Of a stretch of 64,000 bases of DNA, positions 11,230-22,827 are shown one piece after another. Both the position numbers and the translations under genes were made by a program. Source of the DNA: a virus; IMG/VR virus record IMGVR_UViG_3300022752_000001, positions 1 to 64,000 of that record; one strand, 5' to 3'. The notes beneath the pieces are model-generated. The model saw only the letters and a list, made by a program, of their open reading frames with translations, was not told the DNA's origin and searched no databases. Position 1 is the first letter of the stretch. Each line of letters opens with the position of its first letter.

Positions 11230-11649
11230 TCAACCTTTGGACCTCAATACATCCCAGTTATCTCGCCAGGCTGAGTTGGTAGCTAAATAAATAGACTTTG
11301 TCTTGGGCAGCTTGTTTCGGGGCATGACAAAGACAGCGTCCAAAGGAATATGATAAAAAATGAAAATGTCGCAGTCAGTTTTGTTGTAGATCACCTTTTT
11401 CTTGCATGTTTTAAGAAGGGCTCCGTACCCGTAGCCAGGACCTTTTACAGCCAGAAACTTAAGCTTATTTCGCACCTTGGTATCAGAAGCCCCAGAAGTG
11501 GTTTTAACCTGGACTCTTCTGAGCTTGCCTCTCCAGTCGGTTATCAAATCGTACCCCTCGTCGATTACGGGCGTGCAAACAAGAAACCCCTGCTCCAAGA
11601 GCTTTGCGGCCACTCTTTGAACGCCAATAGCCCCTATACGAAGGCTCAT
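11230..11649 (-). CDS. PD-(D/E)XK endonuclease, group I intron-associated (I-Ssp6803I-like) family
   Basis: P..DEGYDLITD.....RVQVKT catalytic motif and YNKTDCDIFIFY. Confidence 0.7.
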   Translation of the reverse strand: MSLRIGAIGVQRVAAKLLEQGFLVCTPVIDEGYDLITDWRGKLRRVQVKTTSGASDTKVRNKLKFLAVKGPGYGYGALLKTCKKKVIYNKTDCDIFIFYHIPLDAVFVMPRNKLPKTKSIYLATNSAWRDNWDVLRSKG

Positions 11650-12173
11650 AGCCAAGACCTCCCCAGGACATTGATCGCAAGCCTGCGACGCCTATAAACC
11701 CCATCTCCGTCGCGGGAACCGCCACCGTTTGTGTTCCCTTCAATCGTTAAAAGCCATTCCCCGTCATTTTTCTCTACAAGCCCGGTATGCGCTACCCGAC
11801 CCATACTGTTAAACCATATCCCAAAGACGTCGGCTGGCTTAAGCGGTATGCCCTTTCTGGATCTATCCCAAATAGGATGGTACAACATTGTGGGCGACCA
11901 AGCCGTCCGGGGGTATGGGTTGAGGGGGCGGGTAAAAGTCTTGTCCCCTACCCAAACAACAAAAGCCGCGCACCAAGGCGCTCGAGTACCTTTTAAACCT
12001 ACCGAGTCTAGGATCTCGTCCACCACGGGCCCGTCGTTCTGTCCCGTAGCTTCTGTGATCCCAATGGCTTTTCTGGCCGTTTCGACAACCCGACTCCTCG
12101 CATCCGCATCACCCAAAGAAATATTGGGGTAGGCAAGAACAAGAGTAATCGCAAAAACATATCTTACCGGCAT
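11646..12173 (-). CDS. CHAP-type endolysin
   Basis: PWCAAFV, HTGLV, TIEGNT motifs; hydrophobic N-terminus. Confidence 0.85.
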   Translation of the reverse strand: MPVRYVFAITLVLAYPNISLGDADARSRVVETARKAIGITEATGQNDGPVVDEILDSVGLKGTRAPWCAAFVVWVGDKTFTRPLNPYPRTAWSPTMLYHPIWDRSRKGIPLKPADVFGIWFNSMGRVAHTGLVEKNDGEWLLTIEGNTNGGGSRDGDGVYRRRRLAINVLGRSWL

Positions 12174-13596: not shown

Positions 13597-13934
13597 AGTT
13601 CAAAACCTTTCTCAACGGAATCTACGAACGCCATGCGTTCTCTTTCCTTGTCCTCTTCGCTCTCAACTCCTGGATTAGGAACTGGAAGACCTTCCAATTT
13701 GGTTACAACGAGCTCTTCCCCATCGATGATACCTGAAGCTACAAAATCAAACTCAGCTCTAGGTTTGACTGGAGTAGGTGCTGAAAACCCAACAGGAAGT
13801 GGAATACGTATTCCGGAAACCTTATCTGTGCTCTTAGGTTCACCAGCAGCTTTGGCAGTCTTAGAGTCTTCAGCCTTTGCTTTAGCCTCAACCTTGCCCT
13901 TGCCAGAAGGGAGAACCAGGAGGATAGATTCCAT
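13593..13934 (-). CDS. small protein, paralogue of 13351-13596
   Basis: IPLPVGF..P..VK..AEFDFVASG..EG.PV. Confidence 0.6.
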   Translation of the reverse strand: MESILLVLPSGKGKVEAKAKAEDSKTAKAAGEPKSTDKVSGIRIPLPVGFSAPTPVKPRAEFDFVASGIIDGEELVVTKLEGLPVPNPGVESEEDKERERMAFVDSVEKGFEL

Positions 13935-13939
13935 TTTAT

Positions 13940-13978
13940 AAAAAGTGACTGCCCCAGGGGGATTGAACCCCTGGGGCA
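13940..13978 (-). terminator. intrinsic terminator after the capsid gene
   Basis: 11-bp GC-rich stem TGCCCCAGGGG/CCCCTGGGGCA with a downstream T-run on the minus strand. Confidence 0.7.
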
Positions 13979-13992
13979 ATCGTTCGAATCAA

Positions 13993-15492
13993 TTAGGCTA
14001 CGAAGTCGAGGACAGCCTCGCCGCGTTTGTGACGGATCACATAGCCCCATTCCGGACGAACCGGCTTGGAACCGTTTGCGAACGTCGCGCGGAAGAAGCC
14101 CACCGAGCCGTCGGGGTTGGAATCCCGATCGGGGATGTTCTTCCACTTGAAGTCACCACGATAACCCTGAGCGTCAAAGCCCATCTGTCCCATCGAGCCG
14201 AGAGGCTTCGGAACAACGGAGTGATACACTTCGTTGATCAAGATGATGGAGTCTTCGTAAGCAGCCGACAGGTAGTTCGTGTTGATGTCATATTTGTTGC
14301 CCTTGGTGGCCGAGGTGCGAACAAACGGGAACACGCGCTTCCAAGCAAAGATCTTATCATTGCTCGCTGCGCTAGCCACGGCGGCGGTCAAAACGATGGT
14401 CGTCGCAGTCACGGAAGAAACCGTGCTGGCAGCCGACCTAACCGTCGTACCGTCGTTGGCAGTAACAACAACCACGTCACCGGCTTCAACACCGTGTCCG
14501 GAGGCAACCGTGTAGGTAGCCGAGGCCACAGCGCTGGCAGTCAAGGCGATACGGTTATAGCGAGGAGGATACGGATCAATGATGTGGTAGAAGCCACCGT
14601 AGGACCGTTCCACGCCGAGAGGAGCAAGCAGCTCATTCGGCTTGGTGGAGTAACGGAAGTCACTACGAATGTCGTTGTTGAGCTTGATGATGTCGTCGCT
14701 GGTCTCAGCGCTGGTGATCAAGTTGAACACAGGCGCACCGTTTTCCTTGCCTTGAGCGGCCACACCGGCGCCGTCACGCAGCAACCGCATATAGATCCGA
14801 CGCAGGATTCCCTGGGTCAGTTTGCTGGTCGCGTCAACCACGGGGCTGAAGGAGGATGCGTCACCGGAAACCGTCGCGAAATCCAAAGTGGAACTCGTAG
14901 AAACGGTCGTCGGGGTCACCTTGTTCTGAGCCAACCGGACGTATTCGTCCTGGTAGCGAGTCGTCCAGACCAAAGCGGTTTGCTCGGTCAGGATGTTCAT
15001 GATCTGGGTCAGCTGCTCTTTCCGGCGCACGGGGTAGCGCAAATCTTCGAGCGAAATGTTCGGAGACTCGAGCGCAACACGACGGAGGTCGTAGGTGCGG
15101 AGGGTTTGAGCAAACTCAACGTTAGCGAACTTGGGCAGGCTAATGTTGTTGTTGGCGTCCGTCGAAGCAGTGGCCGAGCCGGCCGGGCTTTGCGTATACG
15201 CATTGAAGCTGGTGTAGGTCTGATCGGTGGGGTTGGACCCGAGGATCGCCGAGGAGCCCTGCCAGACCGACTGAAGATCGAAATCATTCTGCCGTCCGTT
15301 ACGGGCCGCCTGGGGGATAGAACGCTCGTAGGTCAGCACGCTGACCCGATCGCCCATCTCTTCGGGGAAGGTATCTTGTTTAATTAGTTTGAGCCAAACG
15401 TTGTTATCGACCGTTTTGCGGTAGATCTCGGGCCCAATTCGTCCAGCTTCCTTAACCAGGAGCTGCTGAATATTATCATACACAGTAGACAT
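13993..15492 (-). CDS. major capsid protein
   Basis: strong AAAGGAG RBS, biased codon use, terminator, position downstream of portal and scaffold, GDFKWKNI..NPDG..GFFRATF C-terminus. Confidence 0.75.
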   Translation of the reverse strand: MSTVYDNIQQLLVKEAGRIGPEIYRKTVDNNVWLKLIKQDTFPEEMGDRVSVLTYERSIPQAARNGRQNDFDLQSVWQGSSAILGSNPTDQTYTSFNAYTQSPAGSATASTDANNNISLPKFANVEFAQTLRTYDLRRVALESPNISLEDLRYPVRRKEQLTQIMNILTEQTALVWTTRYQDEYVRLAQNKVTPTTVSTSSTLDFATVSGDASSFSPVVDATSKLTQGILRRIYMRLLRDGAGVAAQGKENGAPVFNLITSAETSDDIIKLNNDIRSDFRYSTKPNELLAPLGVERSYGGFYHIIDPYPPRYNRIALTASAVASATYTVASGHGVEAGDVVVVTANDGTTVRSAASTVSSVTATTIVLTAAVASAASNDKIFAWKRVFPFVRTSATKGNKYDINTNYLSAAYEDSIILINEVYHSVVPKPLGSMGQMGFDAQGYRGDFKWKNIPDRDSNPDGSVGFFRATFANGSKPVRPEWGYVIRHKRGEAVLDFVA

Positions 15493-15616
15493 ATTAGGTA
15501 TTCTCCTTTCAGAGAAATAAGAGTTTTAAAAACAAGAGGAGAAACCAACACGGTTTCCCGTAGTTTTCAAAGTTGGATCTCCCGGCGGCATCCCGAGACT
15601 TTTATTGCCCGCGTGA

Positions 15617-15669
15617 CCACTTCCATTTTTATAGGTCGTGCCCTCAAAACCCGCTTCCGTTTTTATAGG
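15617..15669 (-). repeat. 19-bp imperfect direct repeat in the capsid leader
   Basis: CCTATAAAAAYGGAAGYGG at 15651-15669 and 15617-15635. Confidence 0.8.
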
Positions 15670-15696
15670 ATCTCTAAGGCAGATGAGAGTATGCGT

Positions 15697-15718
15697 TACT
15701 GTCTTTTGTTTGTCAATA
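15697..15718 (-). promoter_or_regulatory. capsid promoter -35 embedded in a palindromic operator
   Basis: minus strand TATTGAC-aaacaaaa-GACAGTA; TTGACA-17-CATACT. Confidence 0.65.
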
Positions 15719-15975
15719 CCTAATTTATGCGTTGACCCGCTCCCTAACAAGAACGCATTTATACCAACCCGTCACCGGGTGGATTGGACTATATCTTGGC
15801 GTCGTTAGACGCCCCGCTTGTTCGTGCTGGTTATTAAGGCTTCCTAAGCCTCCAGTAGTCTCTACACCTTACATGCAAGCGTGCATGTCTTGGCTCGGTA
15901 TTGTCTTGGGGATCTCCCAAGAGTTCCACCGAATTAAAGCAGTATGGGCCTAATCTGAAAAAGAACTACTCAAAA
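15714..15975 (-). ncRNA. group I intron/ribozyme (IA-like, no internal ORF)
   Basis: P AAUUCGGUGGAA, Q AAUACCGAGC, R AAGGUGUAGAGACUA, S AAGAUAUAGUCC; complementary P3, P4, P5, P6, P7, P7.1, P8 and P9 (GUGA loop); splice sites inferred. Confidence 0.85.
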
Positions 15976-16502
15976 ATAGCATATCTACAACAAACACCAA
16001 TGCTATTTCCGTAAGAGATTACCCTACGTCTACCAGTATTTGGGGATCCTGGGACTCGGCTCAATACAAATTTGTCCCAAGAAACCCATACTTTAATGAG
16101 CTTATTGATTGGTAGACCTCCAGAATGGTAGGAGTTAAGAAAAGAGTATAAGTTTGGGGATACAGACTGCCAGAACGAATACCTAGGGTTGCTAGAGTCA
16201 GCATATGTCGGAGAACCATATAGAAAATTTTCTTTCCAACTATACTTATTGATGCTTGGGTAATACCGATATGTTGGTGTACTGCCCGAAGGCTTTACAA
16301 ATTCAAAACCAGTAGCTCCGCAATTTTCAATAAACGGACCAGAACCAACACCAGTGTAGAATGTACCAGTTCGCAGTTCAGAAGGAGCTTGCCTAAGATG
16401 AGATATGTTACCAGTTCTAAATGGAGTAGTGTCTCCATGAAATGTAGCAACCTCGTAAATCGTAGGAGCTTTACGGATCTGTAATGGGAGGATGGTGGGC
16501 AT
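15966..16502 (-). CDS. hypothetical virion-region protein (possible 5' exon of the intron)
   Basis: 178-aa ORF; the last codons form the predicted P1 helix. Confidence 0.6.
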   Translation of the reverse strand: MPTILPLQIRKAPTIYEVATFHGDTTPFRTGNISHLRQAPSELRTGTFYTGVGSGPFIENCGATGFEFVKPSGSTPTYRYYPSINKYSWKENFLYGSPTYADSSNPRYSFWQSVSPNLYSFLNSYHSGGLPINKLIKVWVSWDKFVLSRVPGSPNTGRRRVISYGNSIGVCCRYAIFE

Positions 16503-16503
16503 G

Positions 16504-17118
16504 TCAATATCTTAGAGCCACTGGAGAGTGATAATATATATTTGCAAGTGTTACGGAGTTAAGATTTGAGGGTAGTCCGGAAGTTTGCCCAATAACCCCA
16601 ACATGACCCATACTTGCGCCAGCAATTGCGGAATTGTTAAGTGAACCAAAGACTGGCTCGTTCTTTGCAAAATTGCTTCCGACAGTTCCGGCTCCAGTAG
16701 TTGCGATAAAAACAATCGAGGCAATGTACCAACCTTTTGAGTATGCAGAAGACATTGTCTGAGTTTTAGATGGGTTCATATAAGTCGATGTGTTATCGAC
16801 AATTGTTACTGAGTCCACTAGCGTCGAGTCGTAAAGGCTCGAGCCGACGCGATACATTCCCCACACTGCAGTAATTGAATTGCCGCTTTGCCCATAACCA
16901 TTAGCAGCGTAGAAGCCCTTCATTTCTAAAGAATTGGATGGAACGTCGTATTTTATGTAAAATGGAAACAGAGTCATTGTCCCAAGAATTGAAGAATAGG
17001 CTATGGAACCCCCTCCTCCATAGTAATCCCAACAACCATCTGGAGCCCAAGTTCGCTTATTACTTGCGTTGTACTCGGAAATTGGAAAAGGCGGACGAAC
17101 TGGTGCTTTTTGAAGCAT
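16504..17118 (-). CDS. hypothetical beta-rich virion protein
   Basis: ATG just after the upstream stop; S/T/G/Y-rich. Confidence 0.55.
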   Translation of the reverse strand: MLQKAPVRPPFPISEYNASNKRTWAPDGCWDYYGGGGSIAYSSILGTMTLFPFYIKYDVPSNSLEMKGFYAANGYGQSGNSITAVWGMYRVGSSLYDSTLVDSVTIVDNTSTYMNPSKTQTMSSAYSKGWYIASIVFIATTGAGTVGSNFAKNEPVFGSLNNSAIAGASMGHVGVIGQTSGLPSNLNSVTLANIYYHSPVALRY

Positions 17119-17123
17119 AGGTA

Positions 17124-19040
17124 TTAAACCACTTCGGTGACTCTGGCATTTCCAGCTGTAGCAAACACTGCCGTGTGAGCCAAAGAAGTTTGATTTGAAG
17201 GACATTCCCAGTAGTCGCCAGCGGACAGCCTAACCTGGTACGCGGTAGTTGTGCACGTTGCCCCAACTGAAACGTAAAGCGTGCCGGCTCCTTCGTTGAA
17301 CACAGTTAGAGTTTTTCTATTTGCACTCGCTGCAACCAAAGAAGTGGACGCAGTTGTACTAGTAAAAGTGCTCTGAGTTACAGTTGCACCTTGAGAATTA
17401 TTAATCGTTACCGTCCCGCTTACTGGTTGAGTGACCGAAGAACCATCAACTTTAACAGCTGTTGCATTCGCTCCCGTATTCGCAAGAGTTACTTGAAGCG
17501 GATTAGCAGATCCAACGGCAGTACCGCCTTGGTAAGTTTCAGCCTGAGTTTTAAGATTTGTTGCTGTTCCCTGAGAAACAATCGCACTAACCGTTGGTAA
17601 ATTAGAGACGTACCCAATATCGACTCGTCCGTTTACTCGAGTTATCCCACCGGGATTAGCTCCCCCAAGCGAATACGTCGTGGTTTTATAAGAAACAAAC
17701 TTATATTTCCAAGAACCGTATGCTGCTGGGGTAGTAATTCTAAAATATCTAAAAGTATTGTTTTGATTAACATAAGGGTTTGGTTGAGTACAAGATACGA
17801 TAAATCGACCATAATAGTTACTTCGCGTGCCTCCAAATAATTGACCGTAAACAGTACGATAACTATAGGCATCGGTTGAACTAGATGCGGGAATATCATA
17901 ATAAACCCATGTATACTGCCCAGAAGTCCAGCCCGTGTTGTCAGGAGATCCGTCAATATACAAACCACCGTTTATGCCGGCTCCTTCAATAGTAACCACA
18001 ACGTAATCGGCAGTTGTTCCTGCGTCAAAACTAGCTGTAGTCACCGCAGAGCCTGACAACGAAATAGCGCTAGCTGCGCCAACATTGACGACATAATCAC
18101 CAATTGGTTGAGTTTCTTTTGTGTTTAAAGCCGTTCCCGCTGAAGCTCCTTGAACAGTGATTACATCAGATGAGGGTGTCCCAGCAGTTCCAAGAGCTGG
18201 TTGTTTGGCTGCGGTCGAAGCGCCGGCTGGAAGTGGGAGTGAGGAAGCAGAAATTGGTTGAGTTACACCAGATCCATCGACTGGAATCCTACCGGAAACA
18301 AGAGCTGGAATCTTTGCGAGGAGGCTTGTCCAGTTTTGCATCCCACGTTTGATAAACGCAATTACTGAGAATGTTCCGGTATCTGTTGTAGCGGCGGAAT
18401 CGCTGGTTCCCCCAATGTTGGCGTCCGTCACCGTGCCAGAGATGGGGAGGGGATTGTTTGGATTTACTATTTTGTAATCGTTATCGTAATATCCCAACTG
18501 GACTCCATAAGGTGGTTCTGTCCCTCCGTCATCAGAGGCGATACCTCCTTGAGTATTAGTAAATGCATCTGAAGTTAAATTCGCCGTCACCGTACCAGAG
18601 ATTGGCAGAGAAACTCCTCCATTAATACCCTGGACGCTAACAACGTTTGTAGACGGAGTTCCAGCAGTACCGGTGGTAATATAAGTTACGTCCGCTCCAA
18701 CTGAATCAACGATCTTTGTTTTGGCGTTTCCGCTGGTCATATCGTTGATTGTCAACCCGGCGTTGGTGACGTTTACATTCTGGGTAGCTGGAAAAGTAAC
18801 GCTGATGTTCTCTAGGGCTGCTAAGCTTGTGGCGTCTAGCCCAACGATTCCGCTGACCGGAATCGGATTTCCTGTGCTGTTTGTGACCTCAACTTCGTTA
18901 CTGACTGTAACGGGACCCGTTATAGTGGTGGAGCCGGTCTTGGTATCAATGCTCTTCAAAAGACTATTAATCTTCTGAAGAGACCTATTTGGAGCGTCCC
19001 CTATTTTGGGGTCATCGCCTTCTGGGTAGAAAGCGGGCAT
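17124..19040 (-). CDS. head fibre/decoration-like protein
   Basis: 638 aa, repeated NPLPISGTVT/VDGSGVTQP motifs, ANRKTLTVFNEG C-terminus; between scaffold and capsid genes. Confidence 0.55.
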   Translation of the reverse strand: MPAFYPEGDDPKIGDAPNRSLQKINSLLKSIDTKTGSTTITGPVTVSNEVEVTNSTGNPIPVSGIVGLDATSLAALENISVTFPATQNVNVTNAGLTINDMTSGNAKTKIVDSVGADVTYITTGTAGTPSTNVVSVQGINGGVSLPISGTVTANLTSDAFTNTQGGIASDDGGTEPPYGVQLGYYDNDYKIVNPNNPLPISGTVTDANIGGTSDSAATTDTGTFSVIAFIKRGMQNWTSLLAKIPALVSGRIPVDGSGVTQPISASSLPLPAGASTAAKQPALGTAGTPSSDVITVQGASAGTALNTKETQPIGDYVVNVGAASAISLSGSAVTTASFDAGTTADYVVVTIEGAGINGGLYIDGSPDNTGWTSGQYTWVYYDIPASSSTDAYSYRTVYGQLFGGTRSNYYGRFIVSCTQPNPYVNQNNTFRYFRITTPAAYGSWKYKFVSYKTTTYSLGGANPGGITRVNGRVDIGYVSNLPTVSAIVSQGTATNLKTQAETYQGGTAVGSANPLQVTLANTGANATAVKVDGSSVTQPVSGTVTINNSQGATVTQSTFTSTTASTSLVAASANRKTLTVFNEGAGTLYVSVGATCTTTAYQVRLSAGDYWECPSNQTSLAHTAVFATAGNARVTEVV

Positions 19041-19047
19041 GAGTTAC

Positions 19048-20280
19048 TTACCTCAGCCCTTTTTCAAGTGCGTCCAAAAAGCTTACGTCGGAAGCAAGTT
19101 CAGGAGAACCAGTCTTGGCGTCGCCACTACCAGCTCCAGGAGTGGCAGCACGATACTCACCTAAAGCTTTTTTAAGTCCGGCAATCTCGCCCTGACTTTT
19201 TTTCACGTAACCCTGGAACAACTGAACCATAAGAGGCATTGCTACCGCTTGGTAGGTCAAGGCTGCCCGGGTTTCGGTATCCAAATCAGACTGCTCCACA
19301 AGCATGGCTTGTTCACGAAGTCCATCGACTCGAGCGTCCCACTCGGCATTGCCGGTCTTTTTGAGGATCGGCACTTCCTGAGTAAAGCGATTCCAAATCT
19401 CATTATAAGCTGTTGTTGTTTCTTCTTGAGCTTTCTTTTGAGCAAGCTCCTGCTGGCGGGTCTGTTCGGCTTGTTGAGCAAGCTCGCGCTTATTAATCTC
19501 TTGCATAGCCTTCTCGGCATTGGTGAGGATGACATCGCGTTTGTTGTAAAGCGCGTTGAGTTCATCCACACGACGACGGACATCAACGGCGTCAATCGGG
19601 TCAAGATTGGTAAGCATTTCTTTGACTGCTGCCCTGCGCTGAGCTGGATCGTTAATTGCGGCAGCTCGAACCACGGCATCCGCATCCATTTCGTACAGCT
19701 TGGCCATCTCTTGAATGGTATTGGTGGCTTCACGAATGGGCGCATCAATCGCAACCTTGTACTGCTTGGTGGCTTGTACGCGGGCTACAGAAAGCTCGCT
19801 CTCGTACTCGTCTCGTTCGGCTTTGAGTGTCTCAAGTTCTTTGCGAAGAATATCAAGTTCAGGAGAAGTCTCCTCCCCGGAATCCTCAACCTTGGTCGTC
19901 TCCTTGTTAATTTTAGATTCAAGTGCGGCCAGCTTGGCTTTGGTGTCACGGAGTTCGGTCGTAACCTTTGCAAAGGCTGTTTGAGCAGACTTTGTAGCCT
20001 CTTTTGGTAATTCAGGAGTTGCTTCTTCCTTTGCGTCCTCGGGCTCTTTCCCAATCGCCTCGAGCACGTCATCCGGAATATCGAGCTTGTTCTCTAAAAC
20101 CTTGGCGGGCGTTGCCTCTGCCTTCGACTCTGTTTTTGCGGGCTCAGCTTTAGCAACTTCAGGAGTTGCAACAGTTTTAGGTTCGGGAGTTTTTGGAGCC
20201 TCTGCTTGAGGAGCCGCGGGAGTATCCAACGCGACGTTTAATGCATCCAATAATCCAAGCTCAGGAGCGGGTGTGCTCAT
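19048..20280 (-). CDS. scaffolding protein
   Basis: acidic P/E/K-rich N-terminus, long coiled coil, position after portal. Confidence 0.6.
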   Translation of the reverse strand: MSTPAPELGLLDALNVALDTPAAPQAEAPKTPEPKTVATPEVAKAEPAKTESKAEATPAKVLENKLDIPDDVLEAIGKEPEDAKEEATPELPKEATKSAQTAFAKVTTELRDTKAKLAALESKINKETTKVEDSGEETSPELDILRKELETLKAERDEYESELSVARVQATKQYKVAIDAPIREATNTIQEMAKLYEMDADAVVRAAAINDPAQRRAAVKEMLTNLDPIDAVDVRRRVDELNALYNKRDVILTNAEKAMQEINKRELAQQAEQTRQQELAQKKAQEETTTAYNEIWNRFTQEVPILKKTGNAEWDARVDGLREQAMLVEQSDLDTETRAALTYQAVAMPLMVQLFQGYVKKSQGEIAGLKKALGEYRAATPGAGSGDAKTGSPELASDVSFLDALEKGLR

Positions 20281-20570
20281 TCGTTATTTTTTCCTTTGTT
20301 TTCAGTCCAGGGTTCCGGCAACACTGCCGGCTGCTCCGCCAAATTGGTCAGAGCCCCAAAGTTTCTGAGACAGTCATAAAATCCTTCTCGACGTGCGTTT
20401 TGAAGAGCACCCCACAAAGCAATGTCCGCGCCTTGCGGAACGGGCATGGCTTTCGGTAGAGCAAAATCCACAAGTACTTCAAATGCGCGCTCTAAAGCCG
20501 GTTGCTTTAAAAGTTCTCTTAGTTCAAGCTGAAGGTCTTCCCTTTTACGCCATTCGTCGATAGTCATCAT
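20277..20570 (-). CDS. small head-assembly protein
   Basis: short ORF between portal and scaffold with a REG motif. Confidence 0.5.
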   Translation of the reverse strand: MMTIDEWRKREDLQLELRELLKQPALERAFEVLVDFALPKAMPVPQGADIALWGALQNARREGFYDCLRNFGALTNLAEQPAVLPEPWTENKGKNNE

Positions 20571-20616
20571 ATATATCTTATTGACAGACTTGTGCCATTA
20601 TGGCAAGCACAAAATA

Positions 20617-22827
20617 TTAGGAGTTTCTGATCTTGCTTGCGATTTCAGCATCGCGAAGCGCCATCTTCTGCTGGTGATCTGCCAACTTGATCTGCTGATC
20701 AACTTTGGCTTCTTCAACTTTCATCTGCATGGCAAGCTGATGATCTTGCAGTCTGGCCGCCATATTAGGGTCAACTCCGCCCTGCCCACCGCCATTCTTA
20801 GCCATAGCCTCTTGATGCTTTCGCATGTTCTCTTGTTGCGCTCTCATGTTGTTTTCCAAAGCCACGATAGCTTCACGCATAAGGTTGAGCATTTCATTGT
20901 ATTGCCCAACCTCAACTTTCCGCGTGGGATCGCCAGCAATCTGCTGAAGGTGCATCATGGAGTGCTGGTAGTTAAGAGTCAGATAAGCCAAAGCCATATC
21001 TGGCTTGGCGATACCCTGTGAAGTGGCGTCGAGCATTCCGCGAGCATCGGCCAAGTGAACACGAATATGAACCGAGTGGTTTTCGGTAGGCATAACAGAA
21101 ATAGGACGTCCGTCTTGGAACTGAGCGTTTTCGAGCTCGGCAATCTTGGCGTCCGTAGGTAGGCGTTCTTTGAGTTTCCCGGCCGGGAGATACCGATCGA
21201 CCTGGTCGTAACCAACCCGGGCGGCAACACGGTCACGAATAAGATTCTGTTGACCCACTTCGTCAAACCGAGGAAGGAGTTGGATAAATTCGTTGAAGGC
21301 CAAGATACGAGCTCCGCTAGACCCATAACCAACAGCGCGGACGGGCGTGACATCGTAAACATCAATAACCGCTTTCCAAGGCACGCCACGTTGTTCGAGT
21401 CTGGAGCGGAACTTCTGATAACCTTCATAACCGGCATCACCTGGCTGCCAAGTATCTTTCTGCAAACGCTTGAAACTTTCTTTAAGGAGCTTGCCCCAGG
21501 TCACATAAAACAAATTGATGCTGGCCGTGGTCAAAACAGACTCGTTTGCCAATTGAGCTTGAACTTCGGTTGCAGTTCTCTCTTTGCTGCCTTGCACTTG
21601 TTGGTGTGTTCGGTAGCTACCCGTATTAGCTTGGCGGGTCATGGAAAGTTCCTGAACAACCGGCATCACGCTGTTGTTGAAATTCGGGAATGCGGTCGGA
21701 ACTACCTCAAGATTCGGAGGAAGGAATGAAATAGGTCCTGCAAAAGCAAGAGACAAGCGACTCACGTCTTCAGCAGTCTTGGGTTGAAGAACCAAACTGG
21801 TCGACATCATCGAGCCGTCGACCATCGCACAACGAAGACGATTGCTTACCTGGATGTGGGGAAAGATTTTGTAACCCAAGCCACGGATTGAGTGGTAGGT
21901 GCCGTTCCCAACACCAAAAGTAAATAGGTTGAAAGCTTCAGAAGCTTTCTTGAATCGGCTCTCCTTCTTGTACAAAAAGTCGGTGTTTGATCCGTCGCGC
22001 AACCCAATGTAGTGACTGACCGTGCCGTCGTATTCACGTACGTAATAGTGGTTCACGCGAATCTCGCCGGCGCGAGCGTAGGAATAAAACAGATCGTTAT
22101 TCTTAAATTCTTTTTCGAGCTCTTCCCAGCCTTGGTCGGCGGGGCGGTTTCCCTTGTGAAGCGCAGCCAGAGCCTTGCGAACTTCCTCCACATTCCAGCC
22201 AGCTTCTTTGGCGGCCTTGGGATTCTTGATGAAATTATAAAGTTCGTGAGCCAAGTAAACCCGGCGGGCTACGGCAAACTCAATACGATCTTCAGTGGCC
22301 TGTGTGCCGCGCGGAATAAGAAAATCGCCAATCCCGCAAACACGCCAGCGCCAGTCTTTATCGTTCTCAAAAAAGGTAACACCGAGCCCTTGGGAAATAA
22401 AGTGATGGGCCAGTAGTTGAAAATTAAAATGAAATTGATCCCATTCAACCAAAGTCCGGTGAAACTCCTCGGAGATTGCGCCTGCCCAATTCTGCCGTTC
22501 GCTCTCATCGCCGAACGTAGTCTTAACTTCGACTAGCTTCTCCACGCCGTTTACCAAATCGGTGTACGCGGCCAGGGCATTCTCAAGATCGGCCGCGGCT
22601 TCACCAAAGTTTAGGTTGGCGCGATACGCCTGCCCCATACTACGAAGCGTGTTCGGATTGTAGGGCGGATCTCCATCGAACATCGCTTGGACCTTGCTGC
22701 GGTCCTGGTCAGCGTGCGCATCCGACTCTCTCAGCGTAGTATAAATACTGTGAGCCGACTTGGCGTCTTTAAGACGCGCCTTTGGCGGAGCTCCTGTTTC
22801 GCCGATATTTTCGAGTAAGATGTCCAC
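20617..22827 (-). CDS. portal protein
   Basis: 736 aa, ERTATEV motif of podoviral portals, Q-rich C-terminus, follows terL. Confidence 0.8.
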   Translation of the reverse strand: MDILLENIGETGAPPKARLKDAKSAHSIYTTLRESDAHADQDRSKVQAMFDGDPPYNPNTLRSMGQAYRANLNFGEAAADLENALAAYTDLVNGVEKLVEVKTTFGDESERQNWAGAISEEFHRTLVEWDQFHFNFQLLAHHFISQGLGVTFFENDKDWRWRVCGIGDFLIPRGTQATEDRIEFAVARRVYLAHELYNFIKNPKAAKEAGWNVEEVRKALAALHKGNRPADQGWEELEKEFKNNDLFYSYARAGEIRVNHYYVREYDGTVSHYIGLRDGSNTDFLYKKESRFKKASEAFNLFTFGVGNGTYHSIRGLGYKIFPHIQVSNRLRCAMVDGSMMSTSLVLQPKTAEDVSRLSLAFAGPISFLPPNLEVVPTAFPNFNNSVMPVVQELSMTRQANTGSYRTHQQVQGSKERTATEVQAQLANESVLTTASINLFYVTWGKLLKESFKRLQKDTWQPGDAGYEGYQKFRSRLEQRGVPWKAVIDVYDVTPVRAVGYGSSGARILAFNEFIQLLPRFDEVGQQNLIRDRVAARVGYDQVDRYLPAGKLKERLPTDAKIAELENAQFQDGRPISVMPTENHSVHIRVHLADARGMLDATSQGIAKPDMALAYLTLNYQHSMMHLQQIAGDPTRKVEVGQYNEMLNLMREAIVALENNMRAQQENMRKHQEAMAKNGGGQGGVDPNMAARLQDHQLAMQMKVEEAKVDQQIKLADHQQKMALRDAEIASKIRNS

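What the first reader, a model, noticed from the sequence alone, without database searches (positions are those of the whole stretch)
15714..15980. ORF-less group I ribozyme at a gene boundary just upstream of the major capsid gene
Seen: the minus strand folds into a full group I core. Pairings: P3 CUGCUU(15942-37)/AAGCGG(15819-14); P4 UCGGUG/UACCGA; P5 CUUGGG/CCCAAG; P6 GCC/GGU; P6a ACAUGC/GCAUGU; P7 GAGACUA/UAGUCC (G-binding site); a P7.1 insertion CUGG/CCAG plus AGGCUU/AAGCCU; P8 GGCGUC/GACGCC; J8/7 AAGAUA; P9 ACCCG-GUGA-CGGGU; P9.1 AUGCGUU/AACGCAU. Known: an insertion between P7 and P3' marks subgroup IA, and phage group I introns usually interrupt conserved coding regions and often carry a homing endonuclease. 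Inference: this one has no ORF, sits at a gene boundary and has only a weak P2. It may be a domesticated ribozyme that processes or splices the late polycistronic RNA rather than a selfish intron.
Basis: partly seen in the sequence, partly recalled or inferred. Interest (0 to 1): 0.9.

Follow-up and report, generated by a model that had tools for sequence, protein, structure and literature searches.

The report
Guide-first group I ribozyme in phage
A real, well-conserved self-splicing-type (group I) RNA enzyme sits at the end of a small phage gene just before the capsid gene's promoter, and its layout suggests that it cuts the long late message there instead of splicing a gene, though no experiment has shown this.

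Summary
The ribozyme is real. RF00028 scores 57.7 bits (cut-off 50) at 15765-16002(-), the only Rfam match in the window. Six related loci keep 98% of 84 modelled pairs, 12 of them with changes on both sides. It has no ORF. Its first ~30 nt overlap the last ten codons of a 178-aa ORF, and it ends 18 nt before the -35 box of the capsid promoter.

It interrupts no conserved gene. A relative has an exact empty site, and the frame downstream is not conserved.

The guide GGCCC lies 3 nt 5' of P3, where a canonical relative (phD2B terminase intron) has its guide. Its only conserved partner, GGGU|C with a U.G wobble, lies behind the core. Five other phage ribozyme families show the same layout with other sequences.

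Best reading (about 0.5): a guide-first (permuted) group I ribozyme. It would cut read-through late RNA at 15735|15734 and might release a 30-nt ring.

Main rival (about 0.25): an ordinary ORF-less intron, 15995-15720.

No RNA evidence could be obtained.

Follow-up agents of this scan described the same layout on other DNA.

The parts
15966..16502 (-). 178-aa ORF of unknown function ('ORF178'). Its last ten codons, including the stop at 15968-15966, lie inside the ribozyme's 5' hairpins.
   Evidence: ORF list. 27 homologues found, 26 aligned; all 26 end in GVCCRYAIF+1 residue. No Pfam, PHROG or NCBIfam match. The fold model is poor, pLDDT 49.6.
15977..15999 (-). 5' hairpin 1. In the rival canonical reading this is P1, with U15996.G15980 as the splice-site wobble.
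   Evidence: Helix 1: 9 pairs, 92.6% of cells paired, no change on both sides. The variable positions are purines opposite U.
15957..15970 (-). 5' hairpin 2 (P2-like), with the loop motif GUUCUUU also seen before the guide in L096 and L122.
   Evidence: Helix 2: 5 pairs, one with a change on both sides. Sequences.
15946..15950 (-). Guide GGCCC, 3 nt (AUA) 5' of P3.
   Evidence: Invariant in 6 of 6 loci. Pairs with 15738-15734. It holds the same position as the guide of the canonical phD2B terminase intron.
15766..15942 (-). Catalytic core: P3, P4-P6a, P7, P7.1, P8, J8/7 and P9.
   Evidence: RF00028 alignment and pair counts.
15765..15765 (-). Candidate terminal guanosine (omega G), 2 nt after P9.
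   Evidence: Last position of the RF00028 alignment. G invariant in 6 of 6. The assignment is inferred.
15735..15764 (-). 30-nt stretch between the candidate omega G and the predicted cut. It holds the 5' strand of the outer helix (AUGC 15758-55), the inner hairpin 15754-15739 and GGGU. It is the predicted small ring if a second step takes place.
   Evidence: Length 30-32 nt in 6 of 6 loci. The inner hairpin has 3 pairs changed on both sides. No ring has been seen.
15734..15738 (-). Target strand GGGU|C. U15735 pairs with G15949 as a wobble. The predicted cut is between 15735 and 15734.
   Evidence: 5 of 5 pairs kept in 6 of 6 loci. The wobble is kept while the flanks differ in five other families.
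15727..15730 (-). 3' strand (GCAU) of the outer helix that encloses the inner hairpin and the target.
   Evidence: Helix 14. The equivalent helices have other sequences in L053, L106 and L154.
15688..15716 (-). Sigma-70-like promoter TTGACA-17-CATACT of the capsid gene. The -35 box starts 18 nt after the predicted cut.
   Evidence: Best site of the 5.5-kb scan, 10 of 12. The hexamers are conserved and the spacer varies in 11 relatives without a ribozyme. The 18-nt distance holds in 6 of 6.
15493..15724 (-). Conserved leader shared with relatives that have no ribozyme.
   Evidence: blastn breakpoints at 15718-15729 in 15 loci without a ribozyme. Consensus fold with 6 pairs changed on both sides.
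13993..15492 (-). 499-aa major capsid protein gene.
   Evidence: Fold matches CUS-3, P22, Sf6 and N4 coat proteins. 42 related loci. A terminator-like hairpin follows at 13981..13947.
15725..19044 (-). 3.3-kb variable cassette between the scaffold-like gene and the capsid leader: ORFs of 638, 233 and 178 aa plus the ribozyme. It is absent from relative L015.
   Evidence: Window 22809..19045 aligns to L015 2..3766, and window 15724..13934 to L015 3766..5572.

Best explanation
This is a catalytically competent-looking group I ribozyme whose substrate helix is built back to front.

Layout. The guide (GGCCC, 15950-15946) sits 3 nt before P3, as in canonical relatives that lack P2. The strand it pairs with (GGGU|C, 15738-15734, with U15735.G15949 as the wobble) lies behind the catalytic core. 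That strand sits inside a small 3' domain made of an outer helix and an inner hairpin.

Inferred mechanism:
1. Late transcripts read through from the terminase-portal-scaffold-cassette genes.
2. A free guanosine nucleotide bound in P7 attacks after U15735. This cuts the RNA 18 nt before the -35 box of the capsid promoter.
3. The upstream RNA (cassette genes plus folded ribozyme) is separated from the downstream RNA (leader plus capsid gene), which would carry the added G.
4. If a second step follows, the new 3' end attacks after G15765 and closes the 30 nt 15764-15735 into a ring.

Shown: the ribozyme, its conservation, the guide-target pairing, and the absence of an interrupted gene.

Inferred: that the pairing is P1, the cut, the choice of omega G, the ring, and any benefit. 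Possible benefits are insulating the inserted ORF178 module from the capsid message, or giving the upstream RNA a protected 3' end.
For: 1. The ribozyme is real and under selection. RF00028 scores 57.7 bits. 98% of 84 pairs are kept, 12 with changes on both sides. Mean pairwise identity among the six loci is 89.6% for the ribozyme against 63.8% for the body of ORF178.

2. No gene is interrupted. L015 has an exact empty site. The 3' flank is the promoter and leader shared by 15 loci that lack a ribozyme, and those 15 loci give 0 RF00028 matches. The long frame after the ribozyme carries stops in L003 and L004.

3. The guide-target pairing is invariant in 6 of 6 loci and was predicted independently by RNAalifold.

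4. The same topology occurs in 16 loci of 6 families with different sequences. In all of them a U in the target keeps its wobble with a G in the guide:
   - GGCCC with GGGU|C (ours and L154)
   - CGCCC with GGGU|G (L053)
   - UUGCC with GGU|AA (L060, L106, L128)
   - UUGGCC with GGCU|AA (L084, L115, L130, L141)
   - UGGUCC with GGACU|A (L096, L156)
. In four families the target follows an inner hairpin inside an outer helix whose sequence differs between families.

5. Control. The canonical, HEG-bearing terminase intron of Lelliottia phage phD2B has a similar core and no P2. Its guide lies 6 nt before P3 and its target lies upstream. Our GGCCC therefore sits at the guide position.

6. Three of our 6 loci have no GGG[U/C] within 150 nt upstream of the guide, so an upstream partner is not conserved.

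7. In six loci of four other families (L053, L084, L096, L115, L130, L154) the next gene starts 2-45 nt after the target.

8. Earlier follow-ups of this scan reached the same layout on other DNA, and one reports an environmental RNA ring joint. These are leads that I did not check.
Against: - There is no RNA evidence here. The two RNA runs are kept only as contigs, hold 0.07-0.11 of the sampled words, and barely touch the ribozyme.
- Within our six loci the guide and target never vary. All covariation for this helix comes from comparing families that I aligned by eye and by position, not through a model.
- A long-range pairing of this kind could be a tertiary pseudoknot of an otherwise ordinary intron.
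- A canonical P1/P10 can be drawn locally (see the first rival).
- The exon side of the proposed P1 is short (3 G-C pairs plus the wobble). The P10-like pairing for ring closure is weak: 4 bp (AUAA with UUAU) in five loci and 3 bp in the window.
- In five loci the guide region can also pair over 8-11 bp with the 3' strand of P9 plus the omega G region. I cannot explain this.
- My general partner count over 101 ribozymes did not discriminate: 43 had partners on both sides.
- Relatives do well without any ribozyme at this place, and a promoter follows it, so a role in capsid expression is not needed.
Confidence: 0.5

Rival explanations
1. An ordinary ORF-less cis-splicing group I intron of 276 nt (15995-15720) sits at the extreme 3' end of ORF178.

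- The 5' splice site follows U15996 (..UGGU|GUUUG) in the local hairpin, with U15996.G15980 as the wobble.
- The 3' splice site follows G15720 (..AG|GUAUUGACA).
- Splicing replaces the tail CCRYAIFE with VLTNKRQ and joins the ORF178 message to the capsid leader.
- The GGCCC-GGGUC pairing is then a peripheral tertiary pseudoknot.
For: - The hairpin is conserved, 9 pairs with 92.6% of cells paired.
- The U.G pair is invariant in 6 of 6, and the variable purines at 15985-15984 always face U.
- The first 5-6 nt after G15720 can pair with the nucleotides just 5' of G15980. Together with P1 this gives a continuous helix of about 10 bp (read).
- The in-frame stop lies 28-30 nt inside the intron, before the core. 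That is the rule described for phage and bacterial group I introns (passages of PMC2504315).
- The 5' exon ends in GCUGGU in four loci, as does the phD2B terminase exon.
Against: - The exon side of this P1 has only 3-4 weak pairs (one G-C).
- It shows no covariation.
- Its guide is not at the position used by canonical relatives, which lack P2 and have the guide 4-6 nt before P3.
- The supposed omega G and the preceding 'UUAG' belong to the promoter module shared with ribozyme-free phages. The inserted unit therefore ends at GCAUA and brings no terminal G of its own.
- No intron-less allele exists among 26 aligned homologues.
- The exon-2 tail differs completely between the two leader types, so selection for splicing is hard to see. 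Yet the ribozyme is far better conserved than the ORF.
- The conserved U.G in the long-range helix across six families is unexplained under this reading.
Confidence: 0.25
2. The fold is kept but does no chemistry that matters. It would be a structured RNA module that travels with ORF178. It could act as a stable 3' end or a barrier to exonucleases. Its conservation could also come from recent exchange by recombination among phages rather than from selection for catalysis.
For: - All four combinations of the two P6a variants and the two P9 variants occur among the six loci. The ribozymes therefore recombine.
- The module [ORF178 + ribozyme] has three different upstream contexts and two leader types.
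- No activity has been shown.
Against: - The catalytic elements (P7 with its bulge, J8/7, J4/5-type joints, a U.G substrate helix) are invariant.
- Peripheral stems change only by compensation. This is the pattern of a working ribozyme.
Confidence: 0.1
3. The ribozyme back-splices the whole capsid message into a circle. The guide region GAUUAGGC (15955-15948) would pair with GCCUAAUU at the capsid stop codon (13998-13991). This idea comes from another first-stage note, e1-6191099.
For: The 8-nt match exists in the window, and GCCTAATT is kept at the capsid stop in all 8 further loci examined.
Against: - In 5 of 6 distinct loci the guide region carries a 2-nt insertion (GAUUAUCGGCC) that breaks the 8-bp match into 5 + 3.
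- GCC-TAA is explained by the conserved Ala-stop codons.
- GGCCC already has a conserved local partner.
- A strong terminator-like hairpin follows the capsid gene.
Confidence: 0.03
4. The whole 3.3-kb cassette is one giant intron carrying three ORFs. The 5' splice site would follow GGGCU at the end of the scaffold-like gene (about 19058-19054), paired with GGCCC.
For: - GGGCU lies about 10 nt before the cassette's left boundary and is complementary to the guide with a terminal U.G.
- The cassette is exactly absent from L015.
Against: - The boundaries seen by comparison (TAAGTA|ACTC on the left, GCATAA|ATTAGG on the right) are not U| and G| splice sites.
- A 5-mer is expected about three times by chance in 3.3 kb.
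- Other relatives carry other cassettes at this place without any ribozyme.
- The module boundary lies at the ORF178 start codon.
Confidence: 0.02

Closest known systems
Canonical phage group I introns with a P7.1 insertion and no P2, for example the HEG-bearing intron in the terminase large-subunit gene of Lelliottia phage phD2B (NC_025450.1). T4 td, nrdB and nrdD are recalled, not examined.
   Same: - The core is of the same type (P4-P6, P7 and J8/7 motifs, P9 with a GNRA-like loop), and both match RF00028.
- The guide lies a few nucleotides before P3.
- The substrate helix has G-C pairs ending in a U.G wobble.
   Different: - In phD2B the target strand is upstream: the 5' exon, then a 9-nt loop, then the guide. 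The intron splits a conserved gene and carries a homing endonuclease gene.
- Here the only conserved partner of the guide lies behind the core. No gene is split and no ORF lies inside.
Engineered permuted intron-exon (PIE) group I constructs, and the back-splicing group I intron of mushroom-coral mitochondria (Chi et al. 2019, known to me only through a passage of PMC8637638).
   Same: The 3' splice site lies ahead of the 5' splice site on the transcript, so the two steps would release the stretch between them as a ring.
   Different: - PIE constructs split the ribozyme into two halves around a large exon. Here the whole core stays in one piece and only the target strand of P1 has moved.
- The 'exon' is a 30-nt hairpin without coding capacity.
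- No ring has been seen.
Lariat-capping ribozyme (GIR1) of twin-ribozyme introns.
   Same: - It is a group I derivative that does not splice but cuts just ahead of a downstream gene.
- The topology is the same: a 5' strand next to the core pairs with a 3' strand behind P9, with a hairpin before it (recalled; Meyer et al. 2014 is cited in PMC8637638).
   Different: - No Rfam match other than RF00028 appears, even at E<=10.
- The core is an ordinary P3-P8/P7 core with P7.1.
- Nothing suggests a 3-nt lariat.
- The helix carries a P1-type U.G wobble.
'Guide-first' or 'back-to-front' group I ribozymes reported by earlier follow-ups of this scan on other phage DNA (e1-6035132, e1-5855837, e1-5855845, e1-6051090, e1-5737508, e1-5915451). 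These are AI notes and unpublished.
   Same: - The ribozyme sits between phage structural genes.
- The guide lies ahead of the core and the cut site behind it.
- A small ring of 19-76 nt is predicted.
   Different: - Here the ribozyme overlaps the tail of an ORF with which it always travels.
- A promoter and a 230-nt leader separate it from the next gene.
- The phage is a 72-kb podovirus-like phage, not a T4-like one.

Membership tests
Group I catalytic intron ribozyme (Rfam RF00028) | Covariance-model score at or above the curated gathering score | tested here: met
   57.7 bits against 50, E 4.9e-12, full model 1-253. Of the five related loci, L003 (54.6), L004 (66.9) and L180 (66.9) pass, while L002 and L179 do not reach the cut-off.
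Group I catalytic intron ribozyme (Rfam RF00028) | Core helices P3-P9 with P7, J8/7 and the P3/P7 pseudoknot, kept by compensatory change | tested here: met
   84 pairs, 98% of cells paired, 12 pairs changed on both sides. Slid controls give 33-41%.
Group I intron in the strict sense (a spliced intervening sequence) | Interrupts a gene, so that removal restores a conserved reading frame or RNA | tested here: not met
   Empty site in L015. The 3' flank is a promoter and leader shared with ribozyme-free phages. The downstream frame is broken in L003 and L004. No homologue of ORF178 has another C-terminus.
Group I intron in the strict sense (a spliced intervening sequence) | P1 formed by the 5' exon upstream of the guide, with a U.G at the splice site | tested here: inconclusive
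   A weak local hairpin with U15996.G15980 can be drawn. But the strand at the guide position of canonical relatives (GGCCC) has no conserved upstream partner: 3 of 6 loci have no GGG[U/C] within 150 nt.
Group I intron in the strict sense (a spliced intervening sequence) | GTP-dependent self-splicing and exon ligation | not testable with these tools
   Only assembled contigs of two RNA runs were on hand. They hold small shares of the stretch and none bridges the ribozyme.
Mobile group I intron with a homing endonuclease | An endonuclease gene inside the intron, or one nearby whose presence goes with the intron | tested here: not met
   No ORF lies inside. The PD-(D/E)XK_5 gene at 11230-11655 (PF11645, E 4.1e-13) is present in 5 of 5 relatives searched, 2 with and 3 without the ribozyme. 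ORF178 matches no family.
Guide-first (permuted-P1) group I ribozymes of phages (a class known only from this scan) | Guide 0-4 nt before P3, pairing with a strand 3' of the P9 domain through a helix that holds a U(target).G(guide) wobble | tested here: met
   GGCCC 15950-46 pairs with GGGUC 15738-34 in 6 of 6 loci. The same holds with other sequences in 10 loci of 5 further families.
Guide-first (permuted-P1) group I ribozymes of phages (a class known only from this scan) | Cleavage at the wobble U and, where claimed, a head-to-tail ring joint | not testable with these tools
   No joint or RNA end could be seen. The ring reported by e1-5915451 is on other DNA and I did not check it.
Lariat-capping ribozyme (GIR1) | Match to the family's model | tested here: not met
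   The scan of 15400-16100 at E<=10 lists RF00028 only.

The most novel reading that the evidence does not exclude
Phages carry a natural class of group I ribozymes in which the substrate strand of P1 has moved behind the core. The RNA enzyme then no longer splices a gene. It cuts polycistronic late messages at gene boundaries and sheds a tiny RNA ring.

This copy is an obligate partner of a small gene. All 26 aligned homologues of ORF178 carry its first 30 nt in their coding tail. It is placed exactly 18 nt before the capsid promoter's -35 box. It would act as a built-in RNA insulator that lets a variable gene cassette sit between the scaffold and capsid genes without disturbing the capsid message. 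The ORF178 stop codon lies 15 nt before the guide, so its folding may be timed by ribosomes that finish ORF178.
Probability: 0.4. Interest if true: 0.85.

Novelty: new variant of a known kind. Interest (0 to 1): 0.65.

Why it matters
Group I ribozymes are known in nature almost only as introns. The lariat-capping ribozyme is the one accepted case of a group I fold turned to another job.

A family of phage ribozymes that keep the full splicing core but have their substrate strand behind it would be a second such case. It would give phages a protein-free way to cut operon RNA at set places, or to make small RNA rings.

This locus is a good test object for four reasons:
- The RNA is short, about 275 nt.
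- The two rival readings predict different and easily told products.
- Natural 'empty' relatives exist.
- The element is tied to one small gene of unknown function next to the most highly expressed late gene.

I found no such natural phage element in the listings of three literature searches. Subscription journals are not covered, and supplements were closed.

Tried and rejected
RNA evidence. The look-up of sequencing runs listed 22 runs, of which 20 hold at least part of the stretch. Only two are RNA (X8, X20), with 0.11 and 0.07 of the sampled words, and both are kept as contigs. Read laying on 13900-19300 with X8, X20, X1 and X2 showed RNA contigs over the capsid gene and leader of relatives, and next to nothing over 15710-16071. 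No joint appeared at 15996/15719 or 15735/15764. This gives no verdict either way.

Exon 2 as coding sequence. The 74-aa frame 15750..15526 is open in the window, but it has stops in L003, L004 and L002 and needs a window-specific 1-nt deletion. Rejected.

RNAalifold's closing helix GUGUUU with AA(A/C)GCAU. I replaced it with the outer 3' helix AUGC/GCAU, which has counterparts with other sequences in L053, L106 and L154.

Giant-intron and capsid-circle ideas. See the rival explanations.

The PD-(D/E)XK endonuclease as the intron's homing enzyme. It is present in 5 of 5 relatives whether or not they carry the ribozyme. Rejected as a specific partner.

ORF178 function. No family matched. The AlphaFold model is poor, pLDDT 49.6, so I made no fold search with it. 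The Atlas structural neighbours all have TM 0.40 or lower.

Pairing between the conserved first 54 nt of ORF178 and the guide region. RNAduplex gave only long, loop-ridden duplexes that differ between loci. No conclusion.

Partner count over 101 ribozymes. Counting upstream against downstream partners of the 12 nt before P3 gave 43 with both, 26 downstream only, 11 upstream only and 21 with neither. The method is too permissive to use.

Pattern scan for more guide-first copies. These are chance matches, and the scan was of no use.

Search of 'phages' with 3.4 kb around the locus gave no match. With the ribozyme alone it gave 7 records with short matches.

L122. A perfect 19-bp complement of the hairpin before P3 lies behind the core and has no wobble. 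It does not fit either model and stays unexplained.

Supplements of papers were not asked for.
Full report
What is there.

The window is 64 kb of a 72,269-bp virus record with direct terminal repeats. On the minus strand the late genes run in this order:
- a terminase large subunit (24577-22862, phrog_2, E 1.9e-13)
- a 736-aa ORF
- a 410-aa Glu/Lys-rich scaffold-like ORF (20280-19048)
- three ORFs of 638, 233 and 178 aa without any family match
- the ribozyme
- a 230-nt leader
- a 499-aa ORF (15492-13993)

The model of the 499-aa product (pLDDT 57.9) matches the coat proteins of CUS-3, P22, Sf6 and N4 (best Foldseek E 2.9e-6, probability 1.0).

RF00028 is the only Rfam family above its cut-off in the window: 57.7 bits against 50, at 15765-16002 on the minus strand. 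It is also the only match in 15400-16100 at E<=10.

I found five further distinct loci that carry the same RNA:
- L002, L003 and L004 from viral contigs (6 of 9 candidate stretches encoded a relative of the 178-aa ORF, some from duplicate records)
- L179 and L180 from metagenome contigs (6 of 42 stretches, 2 of them new)

On the six-sequence alignment A4 I wrote out the structure and counted it. There are 84 pairs and 98.0% of cells form standard pairs, against 33-41% for slid partners. Twelve pairs change on both sides. P6a is swapped wholesale between two variants, and P8, P9 and the inner 3' hairpin change by compensation.

The conserved RNA runs from about 15999 to 15726.

It is not an intron in a conserved gene.

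Relative L015, from a complete 72.8-kb record, aligns with window 22809..19045 and again with 15724..13934, and the two pieces abut at one L015 position. So 19044-15725, which holds the three ORFs and the ribozyme, is a cassette between the scaffold stop codon and the capsid leader.

Fifteen related loci carry other cassettes or none. They resume similarity at 15718-15729 and have no RF00028 match (0 of 15).

What follows the ribozyme is the best sigma-70-like site of the 5.5-kb region, TTGACA-17-CATACT at 15716..15688 with 10 of 12 matches. In the ribozyme-free relatives its hexamers are kept and its spacer varies.

The frame that is open after the ribozyme in the window has stops in L003, L004 and L002.

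The ribozyme travels with the 178-aa ORF.

All 26 aligned homologues (27 found, down to 50% identity) end in GVCCRYAIF plus one residue. The first 30 nt of the conserved RNA encode this tail.

The module [ORF178 + ribozyme] has three different upstream neighbours, with the boundary at its start codon, and two types of leader.

Mean pairwise identity among the six loci:

| Region | Identity |
|---|---|
| First 54 nt of the ORF | 90.6% |
| Rest of the ORF | 63.8% |
| Ribozyme | 89.6% |
| Leader | 66.7% |

All four combinations of the two P6a and two P9 variants occur, so the ribozymes recombine.

Where is P1?

RNAalifold on four sequences paired GGCCC (15950-46, 3 nt before P3) with GGGUC (15738-34), which lies just after a covarying hairpin in the 3' domain. 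I noted then that this helix has a U.G wobble and looks like a P1 with its target on the wrong side.

Three things raised my weight on that reading.

1. Other families show the same layout. Each has a guide 0-4 nt before P3 and a target behind the P9 domain. The sequences differ but the target U always keeps its wobble with a guide G, followed by one or two more pairs. In four families the target follows an inner hairpin inside an outer helix whose sequence differs from family to family. In six loci of four other families (L053, L084, L096, L115, L130, L154) a gene starts 2-45 nt after the target. In the L084 family, AT-rich promoter-like DNA comes right up to the guide.

2. A canonical control has its guide at this position. 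The intron that splits the terminase gene of Lelliottia phage phD2B carries a homing endonuclease gene. It has a similar core and no P2. Its guide lies 6 nt before P3, and its target lies upstream across a 9-nt loop. Our GGCCC is therefore at the guide position of canonical relatives, yet 3 of our 6 loci have no GGG[U/C] within 150 nt upstream.

3. Earlier follow-ups of this scan reached the same layout. They describe 'guide-first' or 'back-to-front' group I ribozymes between phage structural genes on other DNA, and one reports an environmental RNA ring joint. I treat these as leads. I did not check them.

Mechanism proposed.

Read-through late RNA folds into the ribozyme. A guanosine nucleotide attacks after U15735. 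This parts the cassette RNA, with the ribozyme at its 3' end, from the leader-capsid RNA. The cut lies 18 nt before the -35 box in 6 of 6 loci.

If G15765 serves as the terminal G, a second step would close 15764-15735 into a ring (30 nt here; 30-32 nt across the six loci). G15765 is the last position of the Rfam alignment and is invariant.

Only the pairing and its conservation are shown. The chemistry, the ring and any benefit are inferred.

The main rival.

A canonical intron can also be drawn.
- P1 is the local hairpin 15999-15977, with U15996.G15980 as the wobble.
- P10 lies between the first 5-6 nt after G15720 and the nucleotides 5' of G15980.
- The in-frame stop lies 28-30 nt into the intron, as is usual for phage introns (passages of PMC2504315).

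Points against it:
- The helix is weak.
- It shows no covariation.
- Its guide is not at the position that canonical relatives use.
- The 'UUAG' before the supposed 3' splice site belongs to the promoter module of ribozyme-free phages.
- No intron-less allele is known.
- The spliced tail would differ between leader types.

I give this reading 0.25 and the guide-first reading 0.5.

What I could not do.

The cross-family comparison of the guide-target helix was made by position and by eye, not through one model.

In print.

I saw the listings of three searches and passages of three papers:
- PMC5746245 describes an ordinary td intron in an N4-like phage.
- PMC2504315 gives the rules for stop codons and mentions a HEG in P1.
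- PMC8637638 names the coral mitochondrial back-splicing intron as a natural permuted group I RNA, and the lariat-capping ribozyme as a group I derivative.

None of the listed titles or passages describes a natural phage group I ribozyme with its target behind the core.

Verdict.

The element is a new variant of a known kind. The scan has seen the same layout before on other DNA.

Noticed in passing
window 15493-15700 (minus strand) and the matching stretches of L002, L008, L009, L012, L015, L018, L021, L027, L029: The capsid leader is a conserved structured RNA. It has two copies of a CCUAUAAAAA-YGGAAG motif, each in a hairpin, and an invariant GCGGGCAAUAAAAG followed by the hairpin around GGGAUGCCGCC. 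That block is kept even in the otherwise different L002-type leader. A terminator-like hairpin at 15559..15539 lies before the ribosome-binding site. Six pairs change on both sides. In metagenome contigs, depth over 15529-15709 is about 9 times that of the flanks, and the source run's contigs break at 15582-15611. The block is therefore shared by many phages.
   Followed up: partly
window 15725-19044, between the scaffold-like and capsid genes: This is a hypervariable cassette site. L015 has nothing here. Other relatives have 1-3.5 kb of unrelated genes. Several keep only the first ~100 nt of the 638-aa ORF and then diverge, which fits a conserved N-terminal anchor with variable distal parts.
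   Followed up: partly
window 16449-16502 (first 54 nt of the 178-aa ORF): This stretch is 90.6% identical among six loci, against 63.8% for the rest of the ORF, and synonymous sites are also kept. An RNA or DNA signal may overlap the start of the gene, or it may be a recombination joint. I found no convincing pairing with the ribozyme.
   Followed up: partly
window 11230-11655 (minus strand): A free-standing PD-(D/E)XK_5 endonuclease gene (PF11645, E 4.1e-13) with a weak match to PDB chain 2OST_A, labelled 'Putative endonuclease'. It is conserved in 5 of 5 related phage records whether or not they carry the ribozyme.
   Followed up: yes
L122:5935-6260 (minus strand): A related ribozyme in which a perfect 19-bp complement of the hairpin and loop before P3 lies behind the core, with no wobble pair. 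It sits between ORFs called on the opposite strand. It fits neither the canonical nor the guide-first layout.
   Followed up: no
L002, L003, L004, L179, L180 (alignment A4 columns 53-63 with 235-245): In the five relatives the guide region can also pair over 8-11 bp with the 3' strand of P9 plus the candidate terminal G and the next three nucleotides. In the window a 2-nt deletion cuts this to 5 bp. It may be an alternative, inactive fold or a product-like mimic.
   Followed up: no
L053:6330-6600 (minus strand): In this relative the predicted cut lies two nucleotides before the AUG of a 901-aa structural ORF, and the AUG itself is part of the outer 3' helix. Cutting would leave an almost leaderless message.
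   Followed up: partly
L096:8096-8486: A tmRNA gene (RF00023, 109 bits) lies on the same viral contig as a guide-first type ribozyme.
   Followed up: no
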